Shown here in pieces: positions 2,607 to 45,355 of a stretch of 64,000 nt of DNA. Source of the stretch: a virus; IMG/VR virus record IMGVR_UViG_3300037419_001822, positions 32,001 to 96,000 of that record; one strand, given 5' to 3'. The position numbers were made by a program, and so were the translations under genes. Position 1 is the stretch's first letter. The number at the start of each line of letters is the position of its first letter. Below the pieces are notes generated by a model. It saw nothing but the letters and a program-made list of their open reading frames with translations. It had not been told where the DNA came from and made no database searches.

Positions 2607-3082
2607 TCGTGACCCTGGTGGAGTTCCTGCTCGCCCGCCTGGCCGAGGACGAGGAGATGGCCCGGTCGGCACCCGGCCCCCGGTGGGTCGCCAAGTACCG
2701 GCAGAAGCCCGAGCCGCCGTTCGCGGTCGAGCGCTACGCCATCGCCTCCCCGGTCGAGTTCATGGGCCAGGAGCTGGGCGCGCAGACGGTCGCGTTCACC
2801 GAGGACGACACCGCCGAGTCCAAGGCGCTGGTCTACCACGCGGTGCGCTGGGGTCCGGCGCGGGTGCTGGCCGAGTGCGCGGTGAAACGGCGGCTGATCG
2901 AGGAGCACGGCGAGGGTCAGCCATGGAGCCCGGCGCGGAACCCGGGCCGCTGTCGCGTCTGCACCGCGATCGGGCCGGACGGCGGGGCGGCACGCTTCCG
3001 CGCCCCATGTCCTACCCTGCGCCTTCTTGCGCTGCCCTACGCCGACCACCCGGACTATGACCATGGGAGCTGGGCGGCGTAG
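2603..3082 (+). CDS. DUF6221-like actinophage protein
   Basis: LVEFLLARLAEDE...PARVLAECAVKRRLI...TLRLLALPYADHPDY signature. Confidence 0.8.
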   Translation: MIVTLVEFLLARLAEDEEMARSAPGPRWVAKYRQKPEPPFAVERYAIASPVEFMGQELGAQTVAFTEDDTAESKALVYHAVRWGPARVLAECAVKRRLIEEHGEGQPWSPARNPGRCRVCTAIGPDGGAARFRAPCPTLRLLALPYADHPDYDHGSWAA

Positions 3083-3092
3083 TGTCCGCGCC

Positions 3093-4343
3093 ATGGTTCG
3101 AATGCCGCCCGGCGTGACCATGTACGTGAATAACGATGGCTCAAAGAGCTACCGGATCCGGTGGCGGGAGAAGGGCAACGGCCCGCAGCAGTCGCACGTC
3201 TACTCGCGGGTGGCGGAGGCCGCCGACGCGCTGGCCAGGATCAAGGCCAACGGGAAGGTGTGCGACTGCCCGGCGCACTCCCCGGAGCTGGTGCGCGACG
3301 AGCCGACGGTCGCCGTCGCCGGGGATCGGGGGTCGGGCTACACGTTCGGCGAGGCGGTCGCCGACTACATCCGGGCCCGCACCGGCATCGGCAAGGGCTA
3401 CCGCAGCCGGTTCACCGTCGAGATGACCCGCCACTTCGCGCCGCTGCTGGACTCCCCGATCACCGCGATCACCGAGCACGACGTGCGGCTGTGGATCCGG
3501 GGCTGCGAGGAGGCCGAGCATCCGTGGCTGCTGCGCCGGGTGCGCGGCAGCGAGAACGACTACGAGCCCTACCCGCTGTCGCCGACGACGATCCGGCGGC
3601 TGCTCACCCAGGCCGGGTCGGCGGTGGCCGCCGCGCAGGAGGCCGGTCGGCCGGTGCCCGCCCCGAACCCGTTCCGCCGCCACCGGCTGCGGCAGGGCCC
3701 GGACCGGCACGCGGTGATGCGGATCCTCACCCCCGAGGAGTGGGCGCTGCTGGAGTCCGAGCTGCCCGAGGGCTGGGGCCGGGACCTGGCGCGGCTGCTG
3801 GTCGGCACCGGGCTGCGCTTCTCGGAGGCGACGGCGCTGCGGGTCGGCGACGTGGACGTGCTGGCCTCCCCGCCCCGGCTGCACGTGCGGCACGCCTGGA
3901 AGGACGACGGCCGGGGCCGGATGGAGCTGGGCGCCCCCAAGTCACACCGGTCGCGGCGCACGGTGACGTTCGGCCCGGCCGTGGTTGATGCGCTGGCCGC
4001 GCACGTGGTCGCCAAGGAACGACACGAGCTGGTGTTCACCGCGCCCCGGGGTGGGCCGGTGCGCCAAGGCAACTTCTACCACCGGCAGTGGTCCCCGGCG
4101 GTGCGCCGGGCGATGCAGCGCGGGCTGCCCCGCGCCCCGCGCATCCACGACCTGCGGCACACCTACGCCTCGTGGCAGTTGATGGACGGCGTCGCGCTGC
4201 TGACCGTGTCCCGCAGGCTCGGCCACGAGACGGCGGCCGTCACCTCCGACATCTACGGCGACATCAATCCGCAGGCCGAGGAGGCGGCGGTGGCCTCGAT
4301 CGAGCGGGCGATGAGCCGGGCGAACTCCGAGCTTCCTGGGTAA
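3093..4343 (+). CDS. int: Tyrosine integrase
   Basis: TGLRFSEA (R), PKS (K), IHDLRH (HxxR), RLGH, DIYG (Y); N-terminal YRIRWR arm-binding-like segment. Confidence 0.95.
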   Translation: MVRMPPGVTMYVNNDGSKSYRIRWREKGNGPQQSHVYSRVAEAADALARIKANGKVCDCPAHSPELVRDEPTVAVAGDRGSGYTFGEAVADYIRARTGIGKGYRSRFTVEMTRHFAPLLDSPITAITEHDVRLWIRGCEEAEHPWLLRRVRGSENDYEPYPLSPTTIRRLLTQAGSAVAAAQEAGRPVPAPNPFRRHRLRQGPDRHAVMRILTPEEWALLESELPEGWGRDLARLLVGTGLRFSEATALRVGDVDVLASPPRLHVRHAWKDDGRGRMELGAPKSHRSRRTVTFGPAVVDALAAHVVAKERHELVFTAPRGGPVRQGNFYHRQWSPAVRRAMQRGLPRAPRIHDLRHTYASWQLMDGVALLTVSRRLGHETAAVTSDIYGDINPQAEEAAVASIERAMSRANSELPG

Positions 4344-31989: not shown

Positions 31990-32380
31990 GCCCTGCCCGG
32001 GGTGGATCGAGTACCACCCCGGGGATCTCGACGCCGCCTGCGACACCTGCCGAGGCCGGTGCGGGTGGCAGGTGTCCGGCCCCGGGTGGCTCGATCGGGA
32101 CACCCTCCCCGGGTGGTTCAGCGAGCCCCCCCCGGGAGTGGTTCGTCGGATAGCCCCCCGGCGGTGGCGGACAGGCCCGCCCCCGGTGTCGGCGAGACCC
32201 CCCGGAGGTGCCGACAACCCGCCCCCCGGGTGGCAACAAGACCACCCCCCGGTAGTTCGAACCCCACCCCCCGGTGGCGAAGACCCCCCCGGGGTGGTTC
32301 GAAGACCCCCCGGGGTGGCAACAAGACCCCCCGGGGTGGCAAACGGGCCCCCCGGGGGTGCCGACGACCCCACCCCCCTC
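31990..32380. repeat. Degenerate tandem array of about 12-15 C4-7-GG(G)GTG(G) units, period about 17-28 bp
   Basis: For example ccccccggggtggcaacaaga, cccccccggggtggttcgaaga, ccccccggggtggcaaacggg. Confidence 0.85.
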
Positions 32381-33078: not shown

Positions 33079-33115
33079 GCGCCGGAGCTGATGAAAGCTC
33101 CGGCGCGATTTTGTT
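33079..33115 (+). terminator. Intrinsic terminator
   Basis: GCGCCGGAGCT-gatgaa-AGCTCCGGCGC followed by GATTTTGTT. Confidence 0.8.
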
Positions 33116-33160
33116 CTGGGACGTTTTCGCAGGTCAAACGCGGACTTCGCGGATCTTCCG

Positions 33161-33305
33161 CGCGATTTTCGCTCTGAAACGGTATTGTTTTTTCGCGATT
33201 TTGAAAGCTCGCGCGCGATTTTAGCTCTGGCGCGGTATTAGCTCTGGCGCGGTATTGCCGCCGCGCCGCCGCGCGCGCGCGATATTAGCTCTGAGACGGT
33301 ATTGT
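33161..33305. repeat. Four direct repeats GCTCTG-N3-CGGTATT (33171, 33224, 33241, 33288) with CGCGATTTT-type repeats in AT-rich non-coding DNA
   Basis: Seen directly. Confidence 0.85.
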
Positions 33306-33776
33306 AAAACGGCACCGGCCGGTTCACGTACAGGCCTTCTGGTACGGACCCGTTCCGTTCCGACTCGACTCGGACCGGAACGCGCGGTTCCGAGGCGGAA
33401 CGGTCTCGTCCGTATGAGCTGAGACCAGCGAAACGGTCCGTTATCGCAACCGTGCTGGCAGCGTCCATGATCTTGATTCTGCGCCTCCCTGCCTCGCTCC
33501 TGTGCCGACACCCCATTCTAGCAGGGCAGATATACGGACTCTTATGTACGCTAACGATCGGCGAGCCTCTGACCAGGCCTTATGCCGATCCGACACGCCC
33601 GACCGCGTGGACGCGGGACACGCCCGAGGCGTGTTGTCTAAAGCGTTGCGACACGCCGCGATTTACCTGCAGGTTTGGTTAGACACGGCGTGTCGTGCGT
33701 ATCGACACGCGCAGTGTCACACGTGCGCGCGGTTCCTCATCCGGCAGGAACCGGCCGACCAGGAAGGTTCAAGATC

Positions 33777-34808
33777 ATGACTGAGGCCTACCCATTCCGC
33801 CCGGTTATCGCCATTCGCAAGGGTCGGAACGCCATTCACCTTTCTCAGCAGTCGGGAACGTGGCTCGGCGCAGCGCTATTCACGTCGACACTGTGCGGCC
33901 GCGAGATCACGACTGCGGCCGGATGGGTAGAGGTGCAGGAATCCGCTACCTGTGCCCGGTGCGAGAGGGAATGCGCGAACATTGACAGTGACCGCGCCTA
34001 TGTGATCGAGACCGATCACGCGGCCGCAATTGCAGAGGACGCGGAACGCTTCCCGGTCGCCTCGGCGGAATTCCGCATCGGCGAGCGAGTCGGCATCGTG
34101 CGCGGCCTGCAATCCGTGAACGGTCCGCAGGTCTACATGTACGGCACCGTCGTCCGTCACGTCACGTCGTGGAACGACAGCACGGAATATGTCGTGCTCG
34201 GCGAGGACGGAGAGGAGCTGGTCTACGGCGCATATCTCCTGCGGCACGTTCCCGAGAGAATCGCGCCGAGCGTCTGGCAGTCTGCCGCACAGGAGAACGC
34301 CAGTGCACAGAATCGGCGCGCTGCAGAAACCGCCGCTGTCCATGCCGCAGACACTGCCTCGGATGACTTAGCGGACCTGTGCCTCTCCGCCATGTACGAA
34401 GGCCTAGAAGCCTCTCAGTGCCCGCAGGACGCGCCAGAGGATGAGGCGCGCCAGGACAGTACGGAAGGCATCCCCTCGGACGACTCAGAGGCCTACGCGC
34501 ACTCCTGCCCAGTCTGTGGCGCTCCTGCGCACTTTCCCTGTGAAGATCCGTCCTGCTCCTATGCCGTGCCGATGCACCCTGAGCGCGCGCTAGCCGATGC
34601 GTACGACTCCGTCACATTCGGCACGATTGACGACACTCCCGCCACGCGCGAATTCACGGAACAGGAATTCGACACGGTCTCGGAGGAAATTCTGGCCGCT
34701 GTGCGTGGAATCGCAAAGGCACACGGTCTCGCTGCCTCCGTTCTCGACATGGCGCGCGCCTCCGATGACGCCGCTAACGCTCTGTCCCGCTACGGCATCA
34801 CCCGATAA
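33777..34808 (+). CDS. Acidic multi-domain hypothetical protein (first gene of low-GC island)
   Basis: AGGAAGG RBS, ATG 33777; H..LCG...TCARC and CPVC..C..H Zn motifs; atypical codons. Confidence 0.75.
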   Translation: MTEAYPFRPVIAIRKGRNAIHLSQQSGTWLGAALFTSTLCGREITTAAGWVEVQESATCARCERECANIDSDRAYVIETDHAAAIAEDAERFPVASAEFRIGERVGIVRGLQSVNGPQVYMYGTVVRHVTSWNDSTEYVVLGEDGEELVYGAYLLRHVPERIAPSVWQSAAQENASAQNRRAAETAAVHAADTASDDLADLCLSAMYEGLEASQCPQDAPEDEARQDSTEGIPSDDSEAYAHSCPVCGAPAHFPCEDPSCSYAVPMHPERALADAYDSVTFGTIDDTPATREFTEQEFDTVSEEILAAVRGIAKAHGLAASVLDMARASDDAANALSRYGITR

Positions 34809-34841
34809 CACTTCCCACGAATCGGAACCGGAGATCCTGAC

Positions 34842-35521
34842 ATGTCTGCAGTCATCGGAATTGTCGGAATCGTCGCACTCGCAGGAATCTACGTCTGGGC
34901 AGAAATCTACTGCCACATTCGAGACCGTCACACGGTCGGCCCGCGTCCTCTCATCCGTACCGACATTGACGACACCCTCCGCGCAATTCCGGGTGTCTAC
35001 GTTCTGCACTCCGAATCCGCTAACGACCTCCAGCTCACCCTCTTCTGATTCCGGAAGGATTCCCTGTCATGTTCGCGATCGTCGCTCAGATTCTGGTCTA
35101 CCTCACCCTTGCTGCATTGGTTCCATTGACGATTGTCACCGGACACCAGGCAGCACAGGCGCACGCGGAAGGCGCAGCCTCCCCCGATGCGGACACCCTT
35201 ACTCCGACCCTTTACTGAGAGAGGCAAACGGCCGTGCGAATCCGAACCGCTCAGGCAGCCTGTGCCGCTGTGCTGTGCGCCTCCCTGCTCCTAGTCCCTA
35301 CTGCAGGCTCCGAGAGGCCTAGCGGCGTTTCTGGGGCCTCTGGCGACGCTGCCAGTAGTGAGGCCTCCTGGCGCGTCGACACGGCGGAGCGCGCCACGTG
35401 CATTCCGTACCTGTGGGAATCGTCCGACGACGGAATAGGCGTGGCGGAAATGCTCTCCCATGGCTGGCACACAAGCGGAGAGGACGGACGCGCTTTCGCA
35501 CTCTATCCGCCGAATTGCTGA
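34842..35521 (+). CDS. Three small membrane/secreted ORFs (34842-35048, 35069-35218, 35234-35521)
   Basis: Each has an RBS and an N-terminal hydrophobic segment. Confidence 0.55.
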
Positions 35522-35579
35522 CAGCCTTGGTCGCGGCCGGAATTCCGGCCGCGCGCCATGGATGCCAGAGAGGCACCCT
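35518..35579 (+). repeat. 62-nt structured junction element, copy 1
   Basis: Same length as copy 2 and a 28-nt identical block; 8-bp hairpin. Confidence 0.85.
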
Positions 35580-35601
35580 GCCGAATAGGGAGGCACACAC
35601 A

Positions 35602-35808
35602 ATGCGCAATCTCTGCCACGTCTGCCGGAGGCTCCGTCCCGCGCGCGCATTCCGATTCTCTGTCCATGTCTGTGATGACTGCGAGCGTGCGCCGCAGTAC
35701 GTCACTGGCGACGGCGTTTCTCATTACACGCGCGAGGCAGCGTTCCGGCATGCCGATTCGGTAGCGGCACGCACCGGTCAGATTATCGCGATTGAGAGTG
35801 CTCTCTGA
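35602..35808 (+). CDS. Small CxxC...CxxC protein flanked by the two junction elements
   Basis: GGGAGG RBS, ATG 35602. Confidence 0.65.
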   Translation: MRNLCHVCRRLRPARAFRFSVHVCDDCERAPQYVTGDGVSHYTREAAFRHADSVAARTGQIIAIESAL

Positions 35809-35866
35809 CCGCTTTGGTCGGGCCCGACCACTCGGGCCCGCGCCATGGATGCCAGAGAGGCACCCT
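35805..35866 (+). repeat. 62-nt structured junction element, copy 2
   Basis: Compensatory changes in the hairpin relative to copy 1. Confidence 0.85.
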
Positions 35867-35889
35867 CACAGAGAGAGAGGCGCAGGACA

Positions 35890-36660
35890 ATGCTCAGCAC
35901 ACAAGCACTCGGAACGGAACTAGCTACCCGCGTCCGGTCCGCCGTCTCCGCCGTTGCCTTCCTCACTGGACAGAGCGAGGCGCACGCGGAAACGGAATTA
36001 GCGTCCCTCGCGGGTGTCGTCGTCAATCCTGTGCGACAGGACAGAATCGCACAGGCATATGACACCATGCCACGCATTCCCCACGGAATGCGTGAGCTGC
36101 GCGAGGCCTGCCACGCATGGACAGTGTTCGCTCTGGAGATCCGCGCGCAATGGGATGCGCTGCACTCCCTCGGATTCTCGCTCACTGTCGAGTCATTCGA
36201 CCCATATGCCGGACCGGCCGAAATGTTCGGCGACGTCGCCGACTACAGAATCCGCGTCCTGGCGACCGATGTGTGCGGAGAACATCCCTACCTATCGAAT
36301 GAGGATAACGACCTATTCCGCGCCGTTCACGACATTCTGGGCCACGCTGCCACAGGACGCGGATTCGACAGGCACGGTGAGGAAGCCGCGTACCAATCGC
36401 ACTGCCGCATGTTCTCACCCGTCGCGCGCCTCGCATTGGCAACGGAGACGCGCGGACAGAATGCCTCCCTGCACAGCAATGGTCGATTCCCTGTGCAACG
36501 TCTCGGCATCCTCCCCGGATGGGCCCGCGAGACGGACGCACTCGCATTCGGCCTGCCGATCACATTCGACGACATGCGGGCCGAGGCAGCGGCACACCAG
36601 GACGCGCACACCTACGCACTCCGAGAGGGAATCGCACAGCGACCCTCTCAGAGCCTCTGA
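35890..36660 (+). CDS. Zincin-like metalloenzyme-type domain protein (HDxxGH...GEE)
   Basis: NDLFRAVHDILGH...GFDRHGEEAA...ATETRGQN; activity is inference. Confidence 0.65.
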   Translation: MLSTQALGTELATRVRSAVSAVAFLTGQSEAHAETELASLAGVVVNPVRQDRIAQAYDTMPRIPHGMRELREACHAWTVFALEIRAQWDALHSLGFSLTVESFDPYAGPAEMFGDVADYRIRVLATDVCGEHPYLSNEDNDLFRAVHDILGHAATGRGFDRHGEEAAYQSHCRMFSPVARLALATETRGQNASLHSNGRFPVQRLGILPGWARETDALAFGLPITFDDMRAEAAAHQDAHTYALREGIAQRPSQSL

Positions 36661-36681
36661 GAGACCACAGGAGACATCGCC

Positions 36682-36900
36682 ATGACGTGCCGCACTCGCA
36701 CTAGCGGGAACCGTGCCCACCGTTGCTCTCGGGCCCATTGGGAACTAGTCGAGTCATACCGGCTCTGGCGAGAGACCGAACTACTCGCGGCAGAGGCTGC
36801 CACGAATGGATATGAGACCGAACTAGCGGAGTACTGGCAGACACATACGCGGCCCACGTTCCGCGCCTACCTAATCGGAGTCGGGCGCACTGCCCGCTGA
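36682..36900 (+). CDS. Small hypothetical protein flanked by identical 21-bp repeats
   Basis: CTGAGAGACCACAGGAGACAT at 36657 and 36897. Confidence 0.7.
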   Translation: MTCRTRTSGNRAHRCSRAHWELVESYRLWRETELLAAEAATNGYETELAEYWQTHTRPTFRAYLIGVGRTAR

Positions 36901-36921
36901 GAGACCACAGGAGACATTGTC

Positions 36922-37566
36922 ATGACTGACCTAGTGCCCAGTGCCCGGAACATCCTCTCCGTTTGGCACAGTGCCACTCCGGCCGATGTGAACGCGGGGA
37001 GGGAGTGGTACCGACGCGCACGCGCTTTCGCGGCAGAGCTAGATCCTGCCGACCCTGAGCGCGCGGCGGCCGTTATCGCTGTGCTCTCTCCGCAATTGTC
37101 CTGGCCGCGAAACGCACAGCATGCCCGGCACGCGTACGAATTGCGGGCCGAGGGTGCGACCGTGGATGAGATCACAGCCGCACTGCCGATGCTCAAGCGC
37201 AATGCCCGGAAGGCGGCCGCAATTCTGTGGGGTGCCGATCCGGACGCCGTCGTGAGTGGCCCTAAGGTCCGGGCATTCTGGCATTCCATCGCTCGGCCCG
37301 ATGATGCCCGCTCCGTCGTCATCGATCGGCACGCCGTGGATGTGTCACTCGGAATGGTCACCGATGACGCTACCCGCTCCCGTCTCATTGGGCGGAAGGG
37401 TGGATATGCCACCGTCGCCGATGCCTACATTCGTGCGGCCCGCATTCTGTCAGAACAACTCGGCGACACAATCACAGCAACAGAATTGCAAGGTGTGACG
37501 TGGACAGCATGGCGACACACTCACGCACTGGCATTCCATGGCGACACTGAGAGGAAAGCAAACTGA
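36922..37566 (+). CDS. HhH-GPD/Endo III glycosylase-fold-like phage protein (DUF7178-like)
   Basis: EWY, AVLSPQLSWPRN, GPKVRAF, VVIDRHA, LQGVTW motifs. Confidence 0.7.
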   Translation: MTDLVPSARNILSVWHSATPADVNAGREWYRRARAFAAELDPADPERAAAVIAVLSPQLSWPRNAQHARHAYELRAEGATVDEITAALPMLKRNARKAAAILWGADPDAVVSGPKVRAFWHSIARPDDARSVVIDRHAVDVSLGMVTDDATRSRLIGRKGGYATVADAYIRAARILSEQLGDTITATELQGVTWTAWRHTHALAFHGDTERKAN

Positions 37567-37976
37567 TGAGCACAATGGCAACGCTTGACGCTGCTATCCG
37601 TTTCGACGTGCTGCCCGCACTTGTGTCAGAGGGTGGATTCACATTCGACGTAGCGAGTGCGTCACTGGTCGGCATCGGCGAGAGGCGCGGATACGCTATC
37701 GCTATCCCTGACAGTGAGCGCATTCTAGGCAGTGAGGACGTCACTACCGAGGATCTCGTATCAGCCATTGCTGATCTCATCATGGAATATGCCGACGCAC
37801 TGAGCACTGGCGCAATGGTAGGTGGCTGGCACTCGACAGAGCGCAATGTGTATATGGTCGAGATCAGCGACGTGATCACATGTGATCGAACCAACGCTAT
37901 TGCCATCGGTCGAATGAGAGGACAGGAAAGCGTATTCGACCTGAGCAATGGTGAATGCGTGAGCTGCCGCACATAG
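37566..37976 (+). CDS. Putative SAM-lyase-like (SAMase-fold) protein
   Basis: GGW...EIS...AIAIGRMRGQESVF resembles the G[YW]..E...A..QE/QD core of phage SAM lyases. Confidence 0.5.
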   Translation: MSTMATLDAAIRFDVLPALVSEGGFTFDVASASLVGIGERRGYAIAIPDSERILGSEDVTTEDLVSAIADLIMEYADALSTGAMVGGWHSTERNVYMVEISDVITCDRTNAIAIGRMRGQESVFDLSNGECVSCRT

Positions 37977-38001: not shown

Positions 38002-38036
38002 CGGGCCGCAACCTTAGGGTTGCGGCCCGCTTTGTT
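38002..38036 (+). terminator. Intrinsic terminator ending the island operon
   Basis: CGGGCCGCAACC-ttag-GGTTGCGGCCCG followed by CTTTGTT. Confidence 0.85.
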
Positions 38037-38420: not shown

Positions 38421-39527
38421 ATGGGGTCAAGCGTGTCCTGCGCTACGTGTGGTGAAGCGACGACCCGACGGATGTACTGCTCCGTCCAGTGCAACTCGAA
38501 GGCCAAGGCCGAGCGGCAAAAGCGGCCGTGCGCTGGTGGATGCGGCCGGTTGGTCCACCGTCCTGGTCACGGCTCGTCGGGCGACGCGCCCCGTATGTGC
38601 AACCCCTGTCGCCGCGCCAGGCGCTGCTCGGAGCCAGGCTGTGCGGAGCGGCCCGAGGCCAGGGGGGTTTGTCGCCGCCACTACCATCTCGCCTGGAAGT
38701 CCCGCGCCTTCGGCAACCCCGAGTGCTCGGTAGTGGGCTGCTCTCGCGGCGCGCGCAGCCACGGCCTCTGTCAGGTCCATGCGATGCGGAAGCGGCGCGA
38801 TGAGGGTTACGTCGACCCGCCGCGTACCCGGCTGGTCGACAGAACGTGCAGGCGTTGCGACCTGGCGTTTAGGGGCTACTGCGGCACGAAGTACTGCTGG
38901 ACCTGCCGATCGGCAGTACTGGCCGAGCGCAACCGTGCGAGCGCTCGCCCCGCGAAGACCGGGCCGTGCAGCCACTTCTCGATCAACGACTGCCGGGCGT
39001 GTGGCCGCCTCTTCGTTGACAAGGGTAAGCGTGGTCGAGTCGCATGCTCGGCCGAATGCCGTGGGCAATTGGCCCGGGACCGGGCGAATCGACAGCGCGT
39101 CTGCGCCGGTTGTGGGGTGCCGGTGCCGAAGGGGTCGTATCAGCGTCGGTGTGAGCCTTGCCGGGTAGCCCGGCGCGAGGCGGTCCGCCGGGCGGCCTCG
39201 AAGGTGGCCGGGAAGCATCGCGCGCGGGCACGGCGCTTCGGGCGTCGCTACGAGCCCGGGTTGACCTGGCGGACGATCGCCAAGCGCGACGGGCTGCTCT
39301 GCTGGCTCTGCGGCCAGTGGACCGACCCCGATGACTTCGACCTGGTCGAGGGGAGGGATCGGCGCAGCGCCGTCGCCTGCGGCCCGACCTACCCGACGCT
39401 CGATCACGTCGTCGCGCTGTCCCGGGGCGGTGATCACGTCGGCGACAATGTCCGCCTGGCCTGTCACGCCTGCAACGCACGGAAGGGCGATCGAGATCCG
39501 GCCGAGTACCTCACCTGCCTGGGATGA
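38421..39527 (+). CDS. Large multi-Zn-finger HNH endonuclease
   Basis: Many CxxC units; C-terminal CWLC...TLDHVVALSRGGDH...NVRLACHACNARKG. Confidence 0.9.
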   Translation: MGSSVSCATCGEATTRRMYCSVQCNSKAKAERQKRPCAGGCGRLVHRPGHGSSGDAPRMCNPCRRARRCSEPGCAERPEARGVCRRHYHLAWKSRAFGNPECSVVGCSRGARSHGLCQVHAMRKRRDEGYVDPPRTRLVDRTCRRCDLAFRGYCGTKYCWTCRSAVLAERNRASARPAKTGPCSHFSINDCRACGRLFVDKGKRGRVACSAECRGQLARDRANRQRVCAGCGVPVPKGSYQRRCEPCRVARREAVRRAASKVAGKHRARARRFGRRYEPGLTWRTIAKRDGLLCWLCGQWTDPDDFDLVEGRDRRSAVACGPTYPTLDHVVALSRGGDHVGDNVRLACHACNARKGDRDPAEYLTCLG

Positions 39528-40208: not shown

Positions 40209-40714
40209 ATGTCTGCTCCAACCGCTCCGGCCCCGGTTCGCACGGTCGAGCAGATCGACCGGGAGCTGCAGGCCCTGGTGAAGGGCCGCTCGTCCAACCG
40301 GGCCAGCGTGCAGACGCTGATGGGCCGGATCGTGGAGTCCACCGGCCTGATCGACAAGCTGCTGGCCGAGCGGTCGACGCTGACCAACGCCTGCCCGCCC
40401 ACCCTCGAAGGTCTCGCCTGAGCATGGCCCACGTCGAAGGCACCCTCTGCCTGGTCAACACGCACGGCCCCTGGTTCCGCGTGCAGGGCCGCCACCTGGC
40501 CAAGCCCGGCCTGCGGGTCCGGCTCTCGCCGCAGGAGGGCGTCATCATCGACGCCGTCTTCGGCCGCCAGGTGTGGGTGACGCTGGGCTGGTACCCGCGC
40601 CACCTCGCCTGCCGTGAGGTGCGCGGTGTCGGCGGGCTGCCGTCGCTGCGGCACCGCTGCTGGGCGAAGAGCCTGCGGGCCCGCACGATCATCTTCCCGG
40701 CCGTCGCCTCATGA
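40209..40714 (+). CDS. Two small hypothetical ORFs (40209-40421, 40424-40714)
   Basis: GC3-rich frames; second is coupled to HNH. Confidence 0.6.
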
Positions 40715-41004
40715 CGACCCGCCCGGGTCGCAACACGGGCAACTGGCAGCGCCTGTCGAAGGCGTTCAAGGCCGACTGCACGCGCACTCGCAGGCCGTGC
40801 TGGCTGTGTTCGCAGCCGATCGACTACTCGCTGCCCTACGACGACCCGGGCGCCTTCTCGATCGACCACTTCTACCCGGTGAGCACGCACCCGGATCTGG
40901 CCGAGGTTCCCGCGAACTTCCGGGCCAGCCACTTGGACTGCAACAAGCGACGGGGGAACCGTCCCCCGCGCCCGTCGCTGGGTGTGACGTCGTTCCGCTG
41001 GTAG
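40711..41004 (+). CDS. HNH endonuclease (HK97 gp74-like packaging cofactor)
   Basis: CWLCSQPID...SIDHFYP...NFRASHLDCNKRRG. Confidence 0.9.
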   Translation: MTTRPGRNTGNWQRLSKAFKADCTRTRRPCWLCSQPIDYSLPYDDPGAFSIDHFYPVSTHPDLAEVPANFRASHLDCNKRRGNRPPRPSLGVTSFRW

Positions 41005-41108: not shown

Positions 41109-42302
41109 ATGAGCCTGGACGATGCGCTGCGCAAGCCGACCCCGGGCCCGGTGCCCGACCGGCCGCCCTCGCCGCCCTCGACCGAGTTCCGCGTCGAGGG
41201 CACCTCGGCCGAGGTGCTGGTGAACAACGCCCGCAGCCGCTCCGACGCGGGCGGCGACGAGGTGCTGCGCGCCAACGGCCTGGACCCCGAGGAGTGGATC
41301 GCCACCGCGTTCCGCACGTCGGAGTGGACCATGCACGGCGGCGAGCAGGGCCTGTCGACGCGCTGGAACTTCACCCGCAAGCCCGACGAGCGGCCGTCCC
41401 CGCCGGGCCCGCCGCTGGATGACCTGTTCGCCGCCATCGAGCACCGGCCGGTGCCCGCCCGCTCGGTCGAGCACGGGTCGCACGGTTTCGTCGTCGCGCT
41501 GGGGGACATGCAGTTCGGCAAGATCGACGGCGACGGCGCGGCCGGAACCCTGGACCGGGTCCTGTACTGCCTGGACGCCGCGCGGGCCGCGCTGGACTCG
41601 TACCGGAACCGGTACGACATCGGCCACGTGCACCTGGGCTGGCTCGGTGACCACATCGAGGGCTTCCAGTCCCAGGGCGGCGCCAACGTGTGGCGCACCC
41701 CCTTGACCTTGAACGAGCAGATCCGGCTGACCCGCCGGGTCATGCTGCACGGGCTGCAGTTGTTCGCCGAGTCCGGCGTGCCGCTGATGAGCATGGCGGC
41801 CGTCCCCGGCAACCACGGGGAGACGACCCGCTTCGCCGGGCACGGCGTGACCCGCTACGACGACTCGCACGACACCGAGTCCTTGATCTCGGTGTCCGAT
41901 GCTGCCGCGCTGGACCCGAACCGGTTCGGCCACTGCCGCTTCTACGTACCGGAGACCGACGAGCTGACCCTCGCCGTCGATGTCGCCGGGACGCGCATCG
42001 CGCACGCCCACGGCCACCAGTGGAAGACCAACCGCCACTGGGAGTGGTGGTCCGGCCAGGACTTCGGTCGCTCCCCGATCCGGGGGGCGCACATGCTGCT
42101 GTCCGGGCATCTGCACACGTTCCACGCCCACGCCGACGGCGGGCGCCTGTTCGTGCAGGTGCCGTCGCTGGAGGCGGAGTCGACGTGGTGGCGGCACAAG
42201 ACCGGCACCGGCGGCGACCCGGGCCTGGTGGTCGCGGTGACCAAGGACGGTGTGACGCCGGTCCTGGAGCAGATCCGCCCACCGATCCCGAGGAACTCAT
42301 GA
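41109..42302 (+). CDS. Calcineurin-like metallophosphoesterase
   Basis: GDMQ, LGDHIEG, GNHG, AHGH, GHLH motifs. Confidence 0.9.
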   Translation: MSLDDALRKPTPGPVPDRPPSPPSTEFRVEGTSAEVLVNNARSRSDAGGDEVLRANGLDPEEWIATAFRTSEWTMHGGEQGLSTRWNFTRKPDERPSPPGPPLDDLFAAIEHRPVPARSVEHGSHGFVVALGDMQFGKIDGDGAAGTLDRVLYCLDAARAALDSYRNRYDIGHVHLGWLGDHIEGFQSQGGANVWRTPLTLNEQIRLTRRVMLHGLQLFAESGVPLMSMAAVPGNHGETTRFAGHGVTRYDDSHDTESLISVSDAAALDPNRFGHCRFYVPETDELTLAVDVAGTRIAHAHGHQWKTNRHWEWWSGQDFGRSPIRGAHMLLSGHLHTFHAHADGGRLFVQVPSLEAESTWWRHKTGTGGDPGLVVAVTKDGVTPVLEQIRPPIPRNS

Positions 42303-45127: not shown

Positions 45128-45198
45128 TCCGGGCTCGTCCAATGGCAAGACGCCGCGCTCTGGACGCGGAAATTGAGGTTCGACCCCTTGGCCCGGAG
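45128..45198 (+). tRNA. tRNA-Gln (anticodon CTG)
   Basis: Acceptor TCCGGGC/GCCCGGA; anticodon arm CCGCG-ctCTGga-CGCGG; T-loop TTCGACC; no encoded CCA. Confidence 0.88.
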
Positions 45199-45200
45199 CT

Positions 45201-45285
45201 GGAGAGCGGCCCGGACGGCAAGGGCTGCGGCTGCTATCCGCAAGGCCGGGGCGACCCGGAGCAGGTTCGACTCCTGCGCTCTCCG
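45201..45285 (+). tRNA. tRNA-Ser (anticodon GCT), long variable arm
   Basis: Acceptor GGAGAGC/GCTCTCC + G discriminator; TGCGG-ctGCTat-CCGCA; variable stem CCGGG/CCCGG; GCAGG-TTCGACT-CCTGC. Confidence 0.88.
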
Positions 45286-45355
45286 CAGCCGCACAAATAG
45301 CACGTCAGCGTGCCATTTGTGCCAACACCCCATCCCAATAGGAAGGCGCACCCAC

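What the first reader, a model, noticed from the sequence alone, without database searches (positions are those of the whole stretch)
35518..35892. Twin 62-nt structured junction element with covarying hairpin between island genes
Seen: two elements of identical length (35518-35579, 35805-35866), each starting at the TGA stop of the previous gene and lying 84-85 nt (from element start) before the next ATG. Layout is CTGAC(A/C)GC(C/T)TTGGTC-[8-bp stem, 4-nt loop]-GCGCCATGGATGCCAGAGAGGCACCCT. The stems differ (GCGGCCGG/CCGGCCGC versus GGGCCCGA/TCGGGCCC) by three fully compensatory pair changes while the flanks are conserved. A TGG/CCA lower stem with an asymmetric internal loop and a TGCC-agaga-GGCA hairpin are shared. 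Inference: structure is under selection, as an RNase III-like processing or mRNA-stabilising site (as in the T7 early region) or as an attC-like ssDNA recombination site. I recognise no named RNA family.
Basis: partly seen in the sequence, partly recalled or inferred. Interest (0 to 1): 0.8.

Follow-up and report, generated by a model that had tools for sequence, protein, structure and literature searches.

The report
Twin hairpin spacers bracketing a phage gene
Two near-identical 62-base non-coding spacers, each holding a strong hairpin right after a stop codon, flank one tiny orphan gene in a foreign-looking island of an uncultured actinobacterial phage. They probably mark where that gene was recombined in, but no other copy exists in any collection searched, so their function is unproven.

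Summary
Two 62-nt elements (35518-35579 and 35805-35866) start at the C before a TGA stop and lie 84 and 85 nt before the next ATG. They differ at 12 positions. All 12 are compatible with one hairpin: 3 compensatory pairs, 4 loop bases, one C-G to U-G change and one unpaired base. The last 27 nt are identical.

The window is part of a 113-kb phage record. The elements fill the only two long gaps (80 and 81 nt) of a tightly packed nine-gene, low-GC operon that is bounded by two canonical T-tailed terminators. They bracket a 68-aa gene with no relatives outside this phage.

No third copy exists in the genome. No homologue was found in Rfam, the phage collection, IMG/VR, metagenome contigs, GTDB genomes, or about 2.5 Mb of related loci searched with a covariance model.

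The hairpins lack U-tracts, so they are probably not terminators. There are no attC cores, no integron integrase and no sigma-70 promoter.

My best reading (confidence about 0.4) is an intercistronic RNA hairpin module that also served as the short homology through which the orphan gene was inserted. This resembles the PeSL cassettes of T4-type phages but without a promoter. RNase III processing remains possible and untested. The scan has noted the same kind of thing, though not this sequence, in other phages. Interest is moderate to low.

The parts
35518..35579 (+). Copy 1 of the 62-nt junction element. It begins at the C before the TGA of gene A.
   Evidence: 93.8 bits
35805..35866 (+). Copy 2 of the 62-nt junction element. 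It begins at the C before the TGA of gene B.
   Evidence: 90.7 bits
35525..35561 (+). Core hairpin of copy 1 (element positions 8-44): 15 pairs, one bulged C, one U.U mismatch and an AATT loop. The 22-bp centre is a perfect palindrome.
   Evidence: pair probabilities 0.92-1.00
35812..35848 (+). Core hairpin of copy 2, with the same architecture, three compensatory pair changes and a CCAC loop.
   Evidence: pair probabilities 0.81-1.00
35553..35579 (+). 27-nt 3' segment that is identical in both copies. It is the candidate crossover segment and contains an SD-like AGAGAGG followed by CACCCT.
35840..35866 (+). The same 27-nt segment in copy 2.
35234..35521 (+). Gene A (95 aa, GTG start, hydrophobic N-terminus). 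Its TGA opens copy 1.
   Evidence: codon-usage score +16 in this frame only
35602..35808 (+). Gene B (68 aa, CxxC-x15-CxxC, Arg-rich, no Lys). This is the bracketed orphan gene, and its TGA opens copy 2.
35890..36660 (+). Gene C (256 aa, phrog_3170). Homologues occur in cluster C mycobacteriophages and in Micromonosporaceae genome contigs.
36654..36686 (+). First copy of a second, shorter junction repeat (stop, SD, ATGAC), lying before gene D.
   Evidence: (family D8, 91%)
36894..36926 (+). Second copy of the shorter junction repeat, lying after gene D (36682-36900, 72 aa).
33079..33106 (+). Canonical T-tailed terminator at the left edge of the low-GC island.
38002..38029 (+). Canonical T-tailed terminator that closes the island operon.

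Best explanation
The twin is a non-coding intercistronic module with two roles.

(1) In the mRNA of the island operon, each copy folds into a very stable 15-bp hairpin that starts 6 nt after the stop codon. It has no U-tract, so RNA polymerase reads through. The hairpin most likely acts as a barrier to 3' exonucleases, or as a processing landmark that sets the relative stability of the upstream and downstream cistrons.

(2) At the DNA level, the two copies are the footprint of homologous recombination between two diverged members of one junction family. This recombination placed the orphan gene B between genes A and C. A single crossover inside the shared 27-mer, between a donor molecule carrying [element + B] and a recipient carrying A-[element]-C, gives exactly the observed layout. 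That layout has sharp homology borders at the stop codon and at CCCT, an identical 27-mer in both products, and two different hairpin caps, one from each parent.

Shown: the anatomy, the structure-neutral pattern of differences, the operon context, the absence of a U-tract, a promoter and coding signal, and the orphan status of B. Inferred: transcription as one operon, the RNA-level role, and the recombination history.
For: - All 12 differences are compatible with the hairpin, including 3 compensatory pairs. The core helix has probability mostly above 0.9 (0.81-1.00) in both copies, with z-scores of -4.1 and -3.4 against shuffles.
- The elements fill the only long gaps (80 and 81 nt) in an operon whose other junctions are -1 to 33 nt.
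- The operon is bounded by two canonical terminators with 6 T in the tail. The twin hairpins have 2 T in the following 10 nt.
- Mycobacterial RNA polymerase does not terminate at hairpins lacking U-tracts (PMC3993855).
- No frame of either element shows coding signal.
- B has no relative beyond its own 90% cluster among 5.8 billion proteins. It is unrelated to A and C.
- A second gene, D, is bracketed in the same way by a 33-nt stop-SD-start repeat. Only three such junction repeats were seen in 113 kb.
- The island has 60-63% GC against 70-72% elsewhere. Two HNH endonuclease genes lie immediately to its right.
- In T4-type phages, repeated stem-loop modules that run from the stop codon to the next ATG flank orphan genes and recombine to insert or delete them (PMC2839356).
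Against: - There are only two copies and no homologue anywhere searched, so neither selection on structure nor a wider junction family can be demonstrated.
- No variant lacking B could be examined.
- B occurs in 7 of those contigs, and no absence polymorphism is evident.
- Nothing shows that the operon is transcribed as a unit or that RNA ends map to the hairpins.
- The recombination model needs a donor element that no database holds.
- The 5' flank (2 of 15 differences) is only weakly more conserved than the cap (10 of 20), Fisher P = 0.034.
Confidence: 0.4

Rival explanations
1. T7-style RNase III processing sites. Host RNase III cuts the irregular helix formed by the element, releasing a monocistronic B message and leaving hairpins at the 3' ends of the A and B messages.
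For: The elements lie between cistrons, right after a stop and before the next ribosome-binding site. With context, the helix extends to about 20 bp in copy 1 (outer part probability about 0.46) and about 30 bp in copy 2, with bulges and internal loops. RNase III substrates are about two helical turns long, and internal loops direct single-strand cuts that leave stabilising 3' hairpins (PMC3867540).
Against: The outer helix that brings the length to 20 bp or more is not conserved. The A-to-C change at element position 6 breaks one of its pairs in copy 2. Copy 2 instead borrows the 3' end of gene B's coding sequence. The conserved core is only 15 bp. The phage encodes no RNase III. No RNA data could be reached.
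Confidence: 0.15
2. A functionless relic. One junction was duplicated when B was inserted, and the palindrome then diverged through hairpin-templated (template-switch) mutation, which copies a change from one arm to the other and so mimics compensation.
For: Only two copies exist and there are no homologues. The centre of copy 1 is a perfect 22-bp palindrome, which is the outcome expected from arm-to-arm templating. By established knowledge (not tested here), quasi-palindromes are mutational hot spots.
Against: This reading needs about 7 independent events in the 20-nt cap against 2 in the 42 flanking nt. All four loop bases differ, and templating does not explain that. Both hairpins stay at identical length and position.
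Confidence: 0.2
3. A sequence-specific protein-binding or factor-dependent promoter module. The invariant 27-mer, possibly with the conserved 5' flank, is recognised by a phage regulator or an alternative sigma factor. The Arg-rich zinc-ribbon protein B encoded between the copies is one candidate regulator. The hairpin would only insulate the module.
For: The 27-mer has no differences while the cap is half changed. B is a small CxxC...CxxC, Arg-rich protein flanked by the two sites.
Against: The consensus scan found no sigma-70-like promoter at either element. Copy 2 has no TA dinucleotide between the hairpin and the ATG. A phage-specific promoter or operator would be expected at more than two sites, yet nothing else in 113 kb scores above 16.5 bits. 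The 27-mer identity is also explained if it is the crossover segment.
Confidence: 0.1
4. Partial transcription attenuators. These would be tail-less hairpins that lower transcription stepwise along the operon, possibly with help from NusG or Rho.
For: The hairpins are GC-rich with 9 perfect cap pairs and sit directly after stop codons. PeSL stem-loops act as terminators or attenuators in T4-type phages.
Against: There is no U-tract, with 2 T in the 10 nt after the stem, while the island's own boundary terminators have 6. Mycobacterial RNA polymerase does not terminate without a U-tract, even with NusA and NusG (PMC3993855).
Confidence: 0.08
5. attC-like single-stranded DNA recombination sites of an integron-like cassette system.
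For: The flanks are conserved and partly self-complementary, the centre is variable but still paired, there is one extrahelical base, and the sites follow the stop codon of a promoter-less cassette-like gene.
Against: Neither copy has AAC or GTT core triplets. No integron integrase is present: the only tyrosine recombinase lies about 31 kb away and scores 43 bits against a 265-bit cut-off. There is no serine recombinase. Only two sites exist.
Confidence: 0.03

Closest known systems
PeSL (promoter-early stem-loop) cassettes of T4-type phages (Arbiol et al. 2010, PMC2839356; Comeau et al. 2014, PMC4122927)
   Same: Both are repeated intergenic modules that run from the upstream stop codon towards the next start and contain a GC-rich stem-loop. 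Both sit in a compositionally or phylogenetically variable region and flank small orphan genes as direct repeats. In PeSLs, recombination between the copies explains insertion and deletion of the flanked gene.
   Different: PeSLs carry a strong sigma-70 early promoter and number about 50 per genome. This element has no recognisable promoter and only two copies, and it lies inside one operon of a high-GC actinophage. Its hairpin lacks the terminator activity expected of a U-tailed stem. No mini-circles or indel variants could be examined.
RNase III processing sites of the phage T7 early region
   Same: Both are intercistronic irregular hairpins placed between a stop codon and the next ribosome-binding site. 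The lower stems are similar between sites and the upper stems differ. In T7, cleavage leaves a protective 3' hairpin.
   Different: The conserved core here is only 15 bp, and the extension to 20 bp or more is not conserved between the copies. There is no sequence similarity and no evidence of cleavage.
Integron attC sites
   Same: Both have conserved ends, a variable but paired centre and a bulged base, and both follow the 3' end of a promoter-less gene.
   Different: This element has no RYYYAAC or GTTRRRY cores, no IntI integrase or attI/Pc platform, and only two sites.
Intercistronic stabiliser hairpins such as REP elements in the E. coli malE-malF spacer (established knowledge, recalled, not tested here)
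   Same: Both are stable hairpins inside an operon, downstream of a cistron, without terminator function. In the known cases they are thought to protect upstream mRNA from 3' exonucleases.
   Different: REP elements are host-wide families with hundreds of copies. This element is private to one phage island.

Membership tests
Any Rfam family | A covariance-model match at or near the gathering score | tested here: not met
   At gathering thresholds only a tRNA is found in the window. In the permissive scan of 35400-36000 the best hit is dauA at 21.6 bits against a gathering score of 45, E = 0.51.
Integron attC | Inverse core sites R'' (RYYYAAC) and R' (GTTRRRY) | tested here: not met
   Neither 62-nt copy contains AAC or GTT on the + strand (direct reading).
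Integron attC | Associated IntI integron integrase | tested here: not met
   The single tyrosine recombinase is at window 3027-4343. It scores 43.2 bits against a 265-bit cut-off for TIGR02249.
Integron attC | Imperfect hairpin with extrahelical bases and a variable central part | tested here: met
   There is a bulged C at element position 37 and a U.U mismatch. The cap differs at 10 of 20 positions yet stays paired.
PeSL cassette | [quoted passage not shown] | tested here: met
PeSL cassette | Strong sigma-70-like early promoter within the module | tested here: not met
   The consensus scan finds no promoter at either element. Copy 2 has no TA dinucleotide between the hairpin and the ATG.
PeSL cassette | Many dispersed copies in hyperplastic regions | tested here: not met
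   Exactly two copies occur in 113 kb.
PeSL cassette | Flanks orphan genes, and recombination between copies yields indels or mini-circles | tested here: inconclusive
   The bracketed gene B is an orphan.
Canonical intrinsic terminator | GC-rich hairpin followed immediately by a 7-9-nt U-rich tract | tested here: not met
   The hairpin is present, but only 2 T occur in the next 10 nt. The scan reports only the two island-boundary terminators.
T7-type RNase III site | Helix of about two turns (about 20-22 bp) with an internal loop at the cut site | tested here: inconclusive
   The robust core is 15 bp. The outer extension has probability of about 0.46 in copy 1. It reaches about 30 bp in copy 2 but uses non-homologous sequence.
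T7-type RNase III site | Cleavage by RNase III in vivo or in vitro | not testable with these tools

The most novel reading that the evidence does not exclude
The element is the visible tip of a promoter-less 'linker' system in actinophages. In this reading, a family of post-stop hairpin modules has conserved flanks that serve as portable homology for swapping single orphan (possibly anti-defence) genes in and out of a dedicated low-GC operon, while the hairpins keep each inserted cistron's mRNA autonomous. It would be an operon-internal counterpart of PeSL or integron cassettes that needs no dedicated recombinase.
Probability: 0.15. Interest if true: 0.6.

Novelty: new variant of a known kind. 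Interest (0 to 1): 0.35.

Why it matters
How phages gain and lose single small genes in their variable islands without wrecking neighbouring expression is still poorly understood outside T4-type phages. A stop-codon-to-leader hairpin module that brackets an orphan gene, next to a second gene bracketed by a simpler stop-SD-start repeat, would suggest that short conserved junctions act as recombination linkers in high-GC actinophages too. It would also show that a kept hairpin can travel with them. As it stands, the case is a single pair in one uncultured phage, so it is a lead rather than a result.

Tried and rejected
**Searches for further copies, all negative**
- Rfam at gathering thresholds and in the permissive scan.
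- blastn against 50,697 phage records.
- Exact 20-mer, 19-mer and flank-gap-flank patterns in IMG/VR. The last gave 7 hits without the hairpin, which I judged to be chance.
- A 20-mer in metagenome contigs. It gave two hits (L004, L005) that lack the hairpin and the flanks and lie in unrelated sequence, so they are chance matches.
- A 25-mer in GTDB genome contigs.
- Covariance model R1 with filters off over the whole 113-kb genome, and with default filters over 82, 80 and 80 related loci, about 2.5 Mb in all. The best stray hit (L003 2275-2342, 17.8 bits) is a generic post-stop hairpin in a locus that shares only the DUF7178 gene.

**Ideas tested and dropped**
- Tandem gene duplication. A, B, C and D show no mutual similarity.
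- Coding function of the element. No frame has codon-usage support.
- Read-through or selenocysteine-type recoding of TGA. The frame is open from B into C through copy 2, but copy 1 runs into a frame overlapping B out of register, and Rfam gives no SECIS hit.
- Ribosome bypassing. The matching take-off and landing codons are out of frame (direct reading).
- Strand assignment from wobble pairs. The lower stem favours the + strand and the small 3' hairpin favours the - strand, so this was uninformative.
- CRISPR-repeat mimicry or a guide-RNA array. The variable part is self-complementary, there is no spacer logic, and the two stems differ.

- Relatives cannot be drawn for a virus record.
- The near-identical JGI contigs and the contigs encoding the 70%- and 59%-identical gene C homologues could therefore not be read.

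Full report
**Context.** The window is bases 32001-96000 of a 113,439-bp IMG/VR virus record, which is linear and estimated 88% complete. Most of it has 70-72% GC and GC3 near 0.95. The stretch from about 33.1 to 38.0 kb drops to 60-63% GC. Two canonical terminators with T-rich tails delimit this island on the + strand, at 33079-33106 and 38002-38029.

Between them, after a repeat-rich leader, lie nine + strand ORFs:
- 33777-34808
- 34842-35048
- 35069-35218
- A, 35234-35521
- B, 35602-35808
- C, 35890-36660
- D, 36682-36900
- E, 36922-37566 (DUF7178)
- F, 37566-37976

Their junctions are -1 to 33 nt long, except A/B (80 nt) and B/C (81 nt). Eight of the nine stop codons are TGA. Two HNH endonuclease genes and an exonuclease gene follow the island.

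The two long junctions each contain a 62-nt element, at 35518-35579 and 35805-35866. The 3' 27 nt are identical and occur nowhere else in the window or the genome. The two copies differ at 12 positions.

On the minimum-free-energy structure shared by both copies, the differences fall as follows:
- six form three two-sided compensatory changes (C-G to G-C, twice, and G-C to A-U);
- four are the whole tetraloop;
- one turns a C-G pair into U-G;
- one is unpaired.

All 19 modelled pairs form in both copies. The core is a 15-pair hairpin with one bulged C and one U.U mismatch. It folds with probability mostly above 0.9 (0.81-1.00) in the context of 125 nt and is 3.4-4.1 standard deviations more stable than shuffles.

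It is weakly populated in copy 1 (0.33) and nearly absent in copy 2 (0.02). The outer helix is itself not conserved. Copy 2 builds it from the last codons of gene B, and the A-to-C change at element position 6 breaks one of its pairs.

**Is it more than chance?** The repeat is certainly not chance. The distribution of differences is uneven, with 10 of 12 in the 20-nt cap (P = 7.7e-5) and none in the 27-mer (P = 3.9e-4). Six stem substitutions falling in exactly three pairs and restoring pairing has P of about 2.6e-4 under independent mutation.

With only two sequences, the shuffle control of the pair counter can give no better than 58 of 500. Arm-to-arm templating in a palindrome could also produce apparent compensation without selection.

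**No relatives were found.** I found no homologue in any of these:
- Rfam;
- 50,697 phage records;
- exact-pattern scans of IMG/VR, metagenome contigs (two chance hits in unrelated sequence without the hairpin or flanks) and GTDB genomes.

A covariance model built from the pair finds only the two copies and their reverse strands in the whole genome. The next best score is 16.5 bits. It finds nothing in about 2.5 Mb of loci around homologues of the exonuclease, DUF7178 and gene C from IMG/VR and from Micromonosporaceae genomes.

Near-identical strains of this phage do exist in JGI metagenomes. Gene C appears on about 11 contigs and gene B on 7, with 96-99% protein identity.

**What it is not.**
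- It is not coding. No frame of either element has codon-usage support, while the frames of A and B do.
- It is not a canonical terminator. Only 2 T occur in the 10 nt after the stem, against 6 at the island's own terminators. Mycobacterial RNA polymerase does not stop at tail-less hairpins (PMC3993855).
- It is not a sigma-70-type promoter. Copy 2 has no TA dinucleotide between the hairpin and the ATG.
- It is not an attC site. It has no AAC or GTT cores, there is no integron integrase (43 bits against a 265-bit cut-off), and there is no serine recombinase.
- It is not the trace of a tandem gene duplication, because A, B, C and D are unrelated.

**What it most likely is.** Four facts point to a recombination origin for the arrangement.
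- The homology has sharp borders. It begins at the C before each TGA and ends at CCCT, about 22 nt before each start codon.
- It brackets exactly one gene. That gene is an orphan, with only its own cluster among 5.8 billion proteins.
- The neighbouring gene D is bracketed in the same way by a 33-nt stop-SD-ATGAC repeat of 91% identity. A genome-wide look finds only three junction-type local repeats, two of them in this island.
- The perfectly identical 27-mer lies next to a half-diverged cap.

A single crossover within a shared 27-nt stretch, between a donor [element + B] and a recipient A-[element]-C, reproduces every one of these features. It also makes the identity of the 27-mer a consequence of the event rather than proof of purifying selection. 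Under this model the two caps come from two lineages of one junction family. Both kept an 8-9-bp cap of the same length at the same place while half the bases changed, which argues that the hairpin itself matters.

Its position is inside an operon, 6 nt after a stop codon, and it has no U-tract. The most economical role is therefore an RNA one, as a 3'-exonuclease barrier or processing landmark that uncouples the stability of neighbouring cistrons. RNase III cleavage, as in the T7 early region, is a specific version of this idea. It is length-compatible only if the non-conserved outer helices count.

**Comparison with known systems.** The closest described concept is the PeSL cassette of T4-type phages. 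PeSLs are repeated stop-to-start modules with a stem-loop that flank orphan genes in hyperplastic regions and recombine to insert, delete or circularise them (PMC2839356; PMC4122927).

The present element shares the layout and the bracketing. It fails two defining features, the early promoter and the high copy number, so it is not a PeSL. At most it works like one, in a promoter-less, operon-internal form.

Earlier notes of this scan describe similar twin or repeated hairpin modules bracketing inserted genes in other phages. None shares sequence with this one.

**Verdict.** The feature is real and the hairpin shows signs of being maintained. The element is private to one uncultured actinophage lineage, and its function is inferred only from anatomy. 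I rate it a new variant of a known kind, of moderate to low interest, with a clear and inexpensive test: reading the junctions in the near-identical and 59-70% related contigs that I could not reach.

Noticed in passing
window 36654-36686 and 36894-36926: A second junction repeat (33 nt, 91% identical) holds a TGA stop, an AGGAGA SD and ATGAC. It exactly brackets the 72-aa gene D (36682-36900, weak phrog_7933 match). CTGAGAG also opens the junctions before gene A and before gene F.
   Followed up: partly
window 33777-37976: The island proteins are almost free of lysine. Seven of the eight proteins counted have none, and the total is 7 Lys in about 1250 aa (2 in the 343-aa first protein, 5 in the DUF7178 protein), despite the lower GC of the island.
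   Followed up: partly
window 35806-36660: Reading through the TGA of gene B keeps an open frame across copy 2 into gene C, so a B-C fusion is possible. The same frame through copy 1 runs 81 codons out of register with B. This is probably chance (roughly 1 in 10).
   Followed up: partly
window 35890-36660; loci L090-L134: Gene C belongs to a widespread family of unknown function (phrog_3170) with an invariant NDxFRAVHD...GRGFDRHGEEAA core. It is found in cluster C mycobacteriophages as part of a 433-aa protein and in many Micromonosporaceae genome contigs, which hints at the host clade of this phage.
   Followed up: partly
window 33154-33303 and 33592-33760: The leader of the island holds four iteron-like 33-nt repeats (GCTCTG..CGGTATT) and two 8-bp hairpins (33688-33710, 33730-33753) just upstream of the first island gene.
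   Followed up: no
window 31996-32377: An array of C-run/G-run units (CCCCGGGGTGG...) lies just left of the island, overlapping long ORFs on both strands.
   Followed up: no
window 36645-36663: An 8-bp hairpin (CTCTCAGAG-CCT-CTGAGAG) has a 3' arm that contains the TGA stop of gene C.
   Followed up: no
window 38421-39527 and 40711-41004: Two HNH endonuclease genes flank a small HTH gene immediately to the right of the island, ahead of an exonuclease gene (41109-42302, phrog_284). This is consistent with a recombination-prone region.
   Followed up: no
G000:C1 27923-27946 and 28754-28777 (outside the window): A third junction-type repeat (24 nt, 92% identical, GATCCGAGAGGAGGAGTGATGGCC) has copies 831 nt apart and may bracket another gene.
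   Followed up: no
window 45128-45286: Adjacent tRNA-Gln(CTG) and tRNA-Ser(GCT) genes are separated by 1 nt.
   Followed up: no
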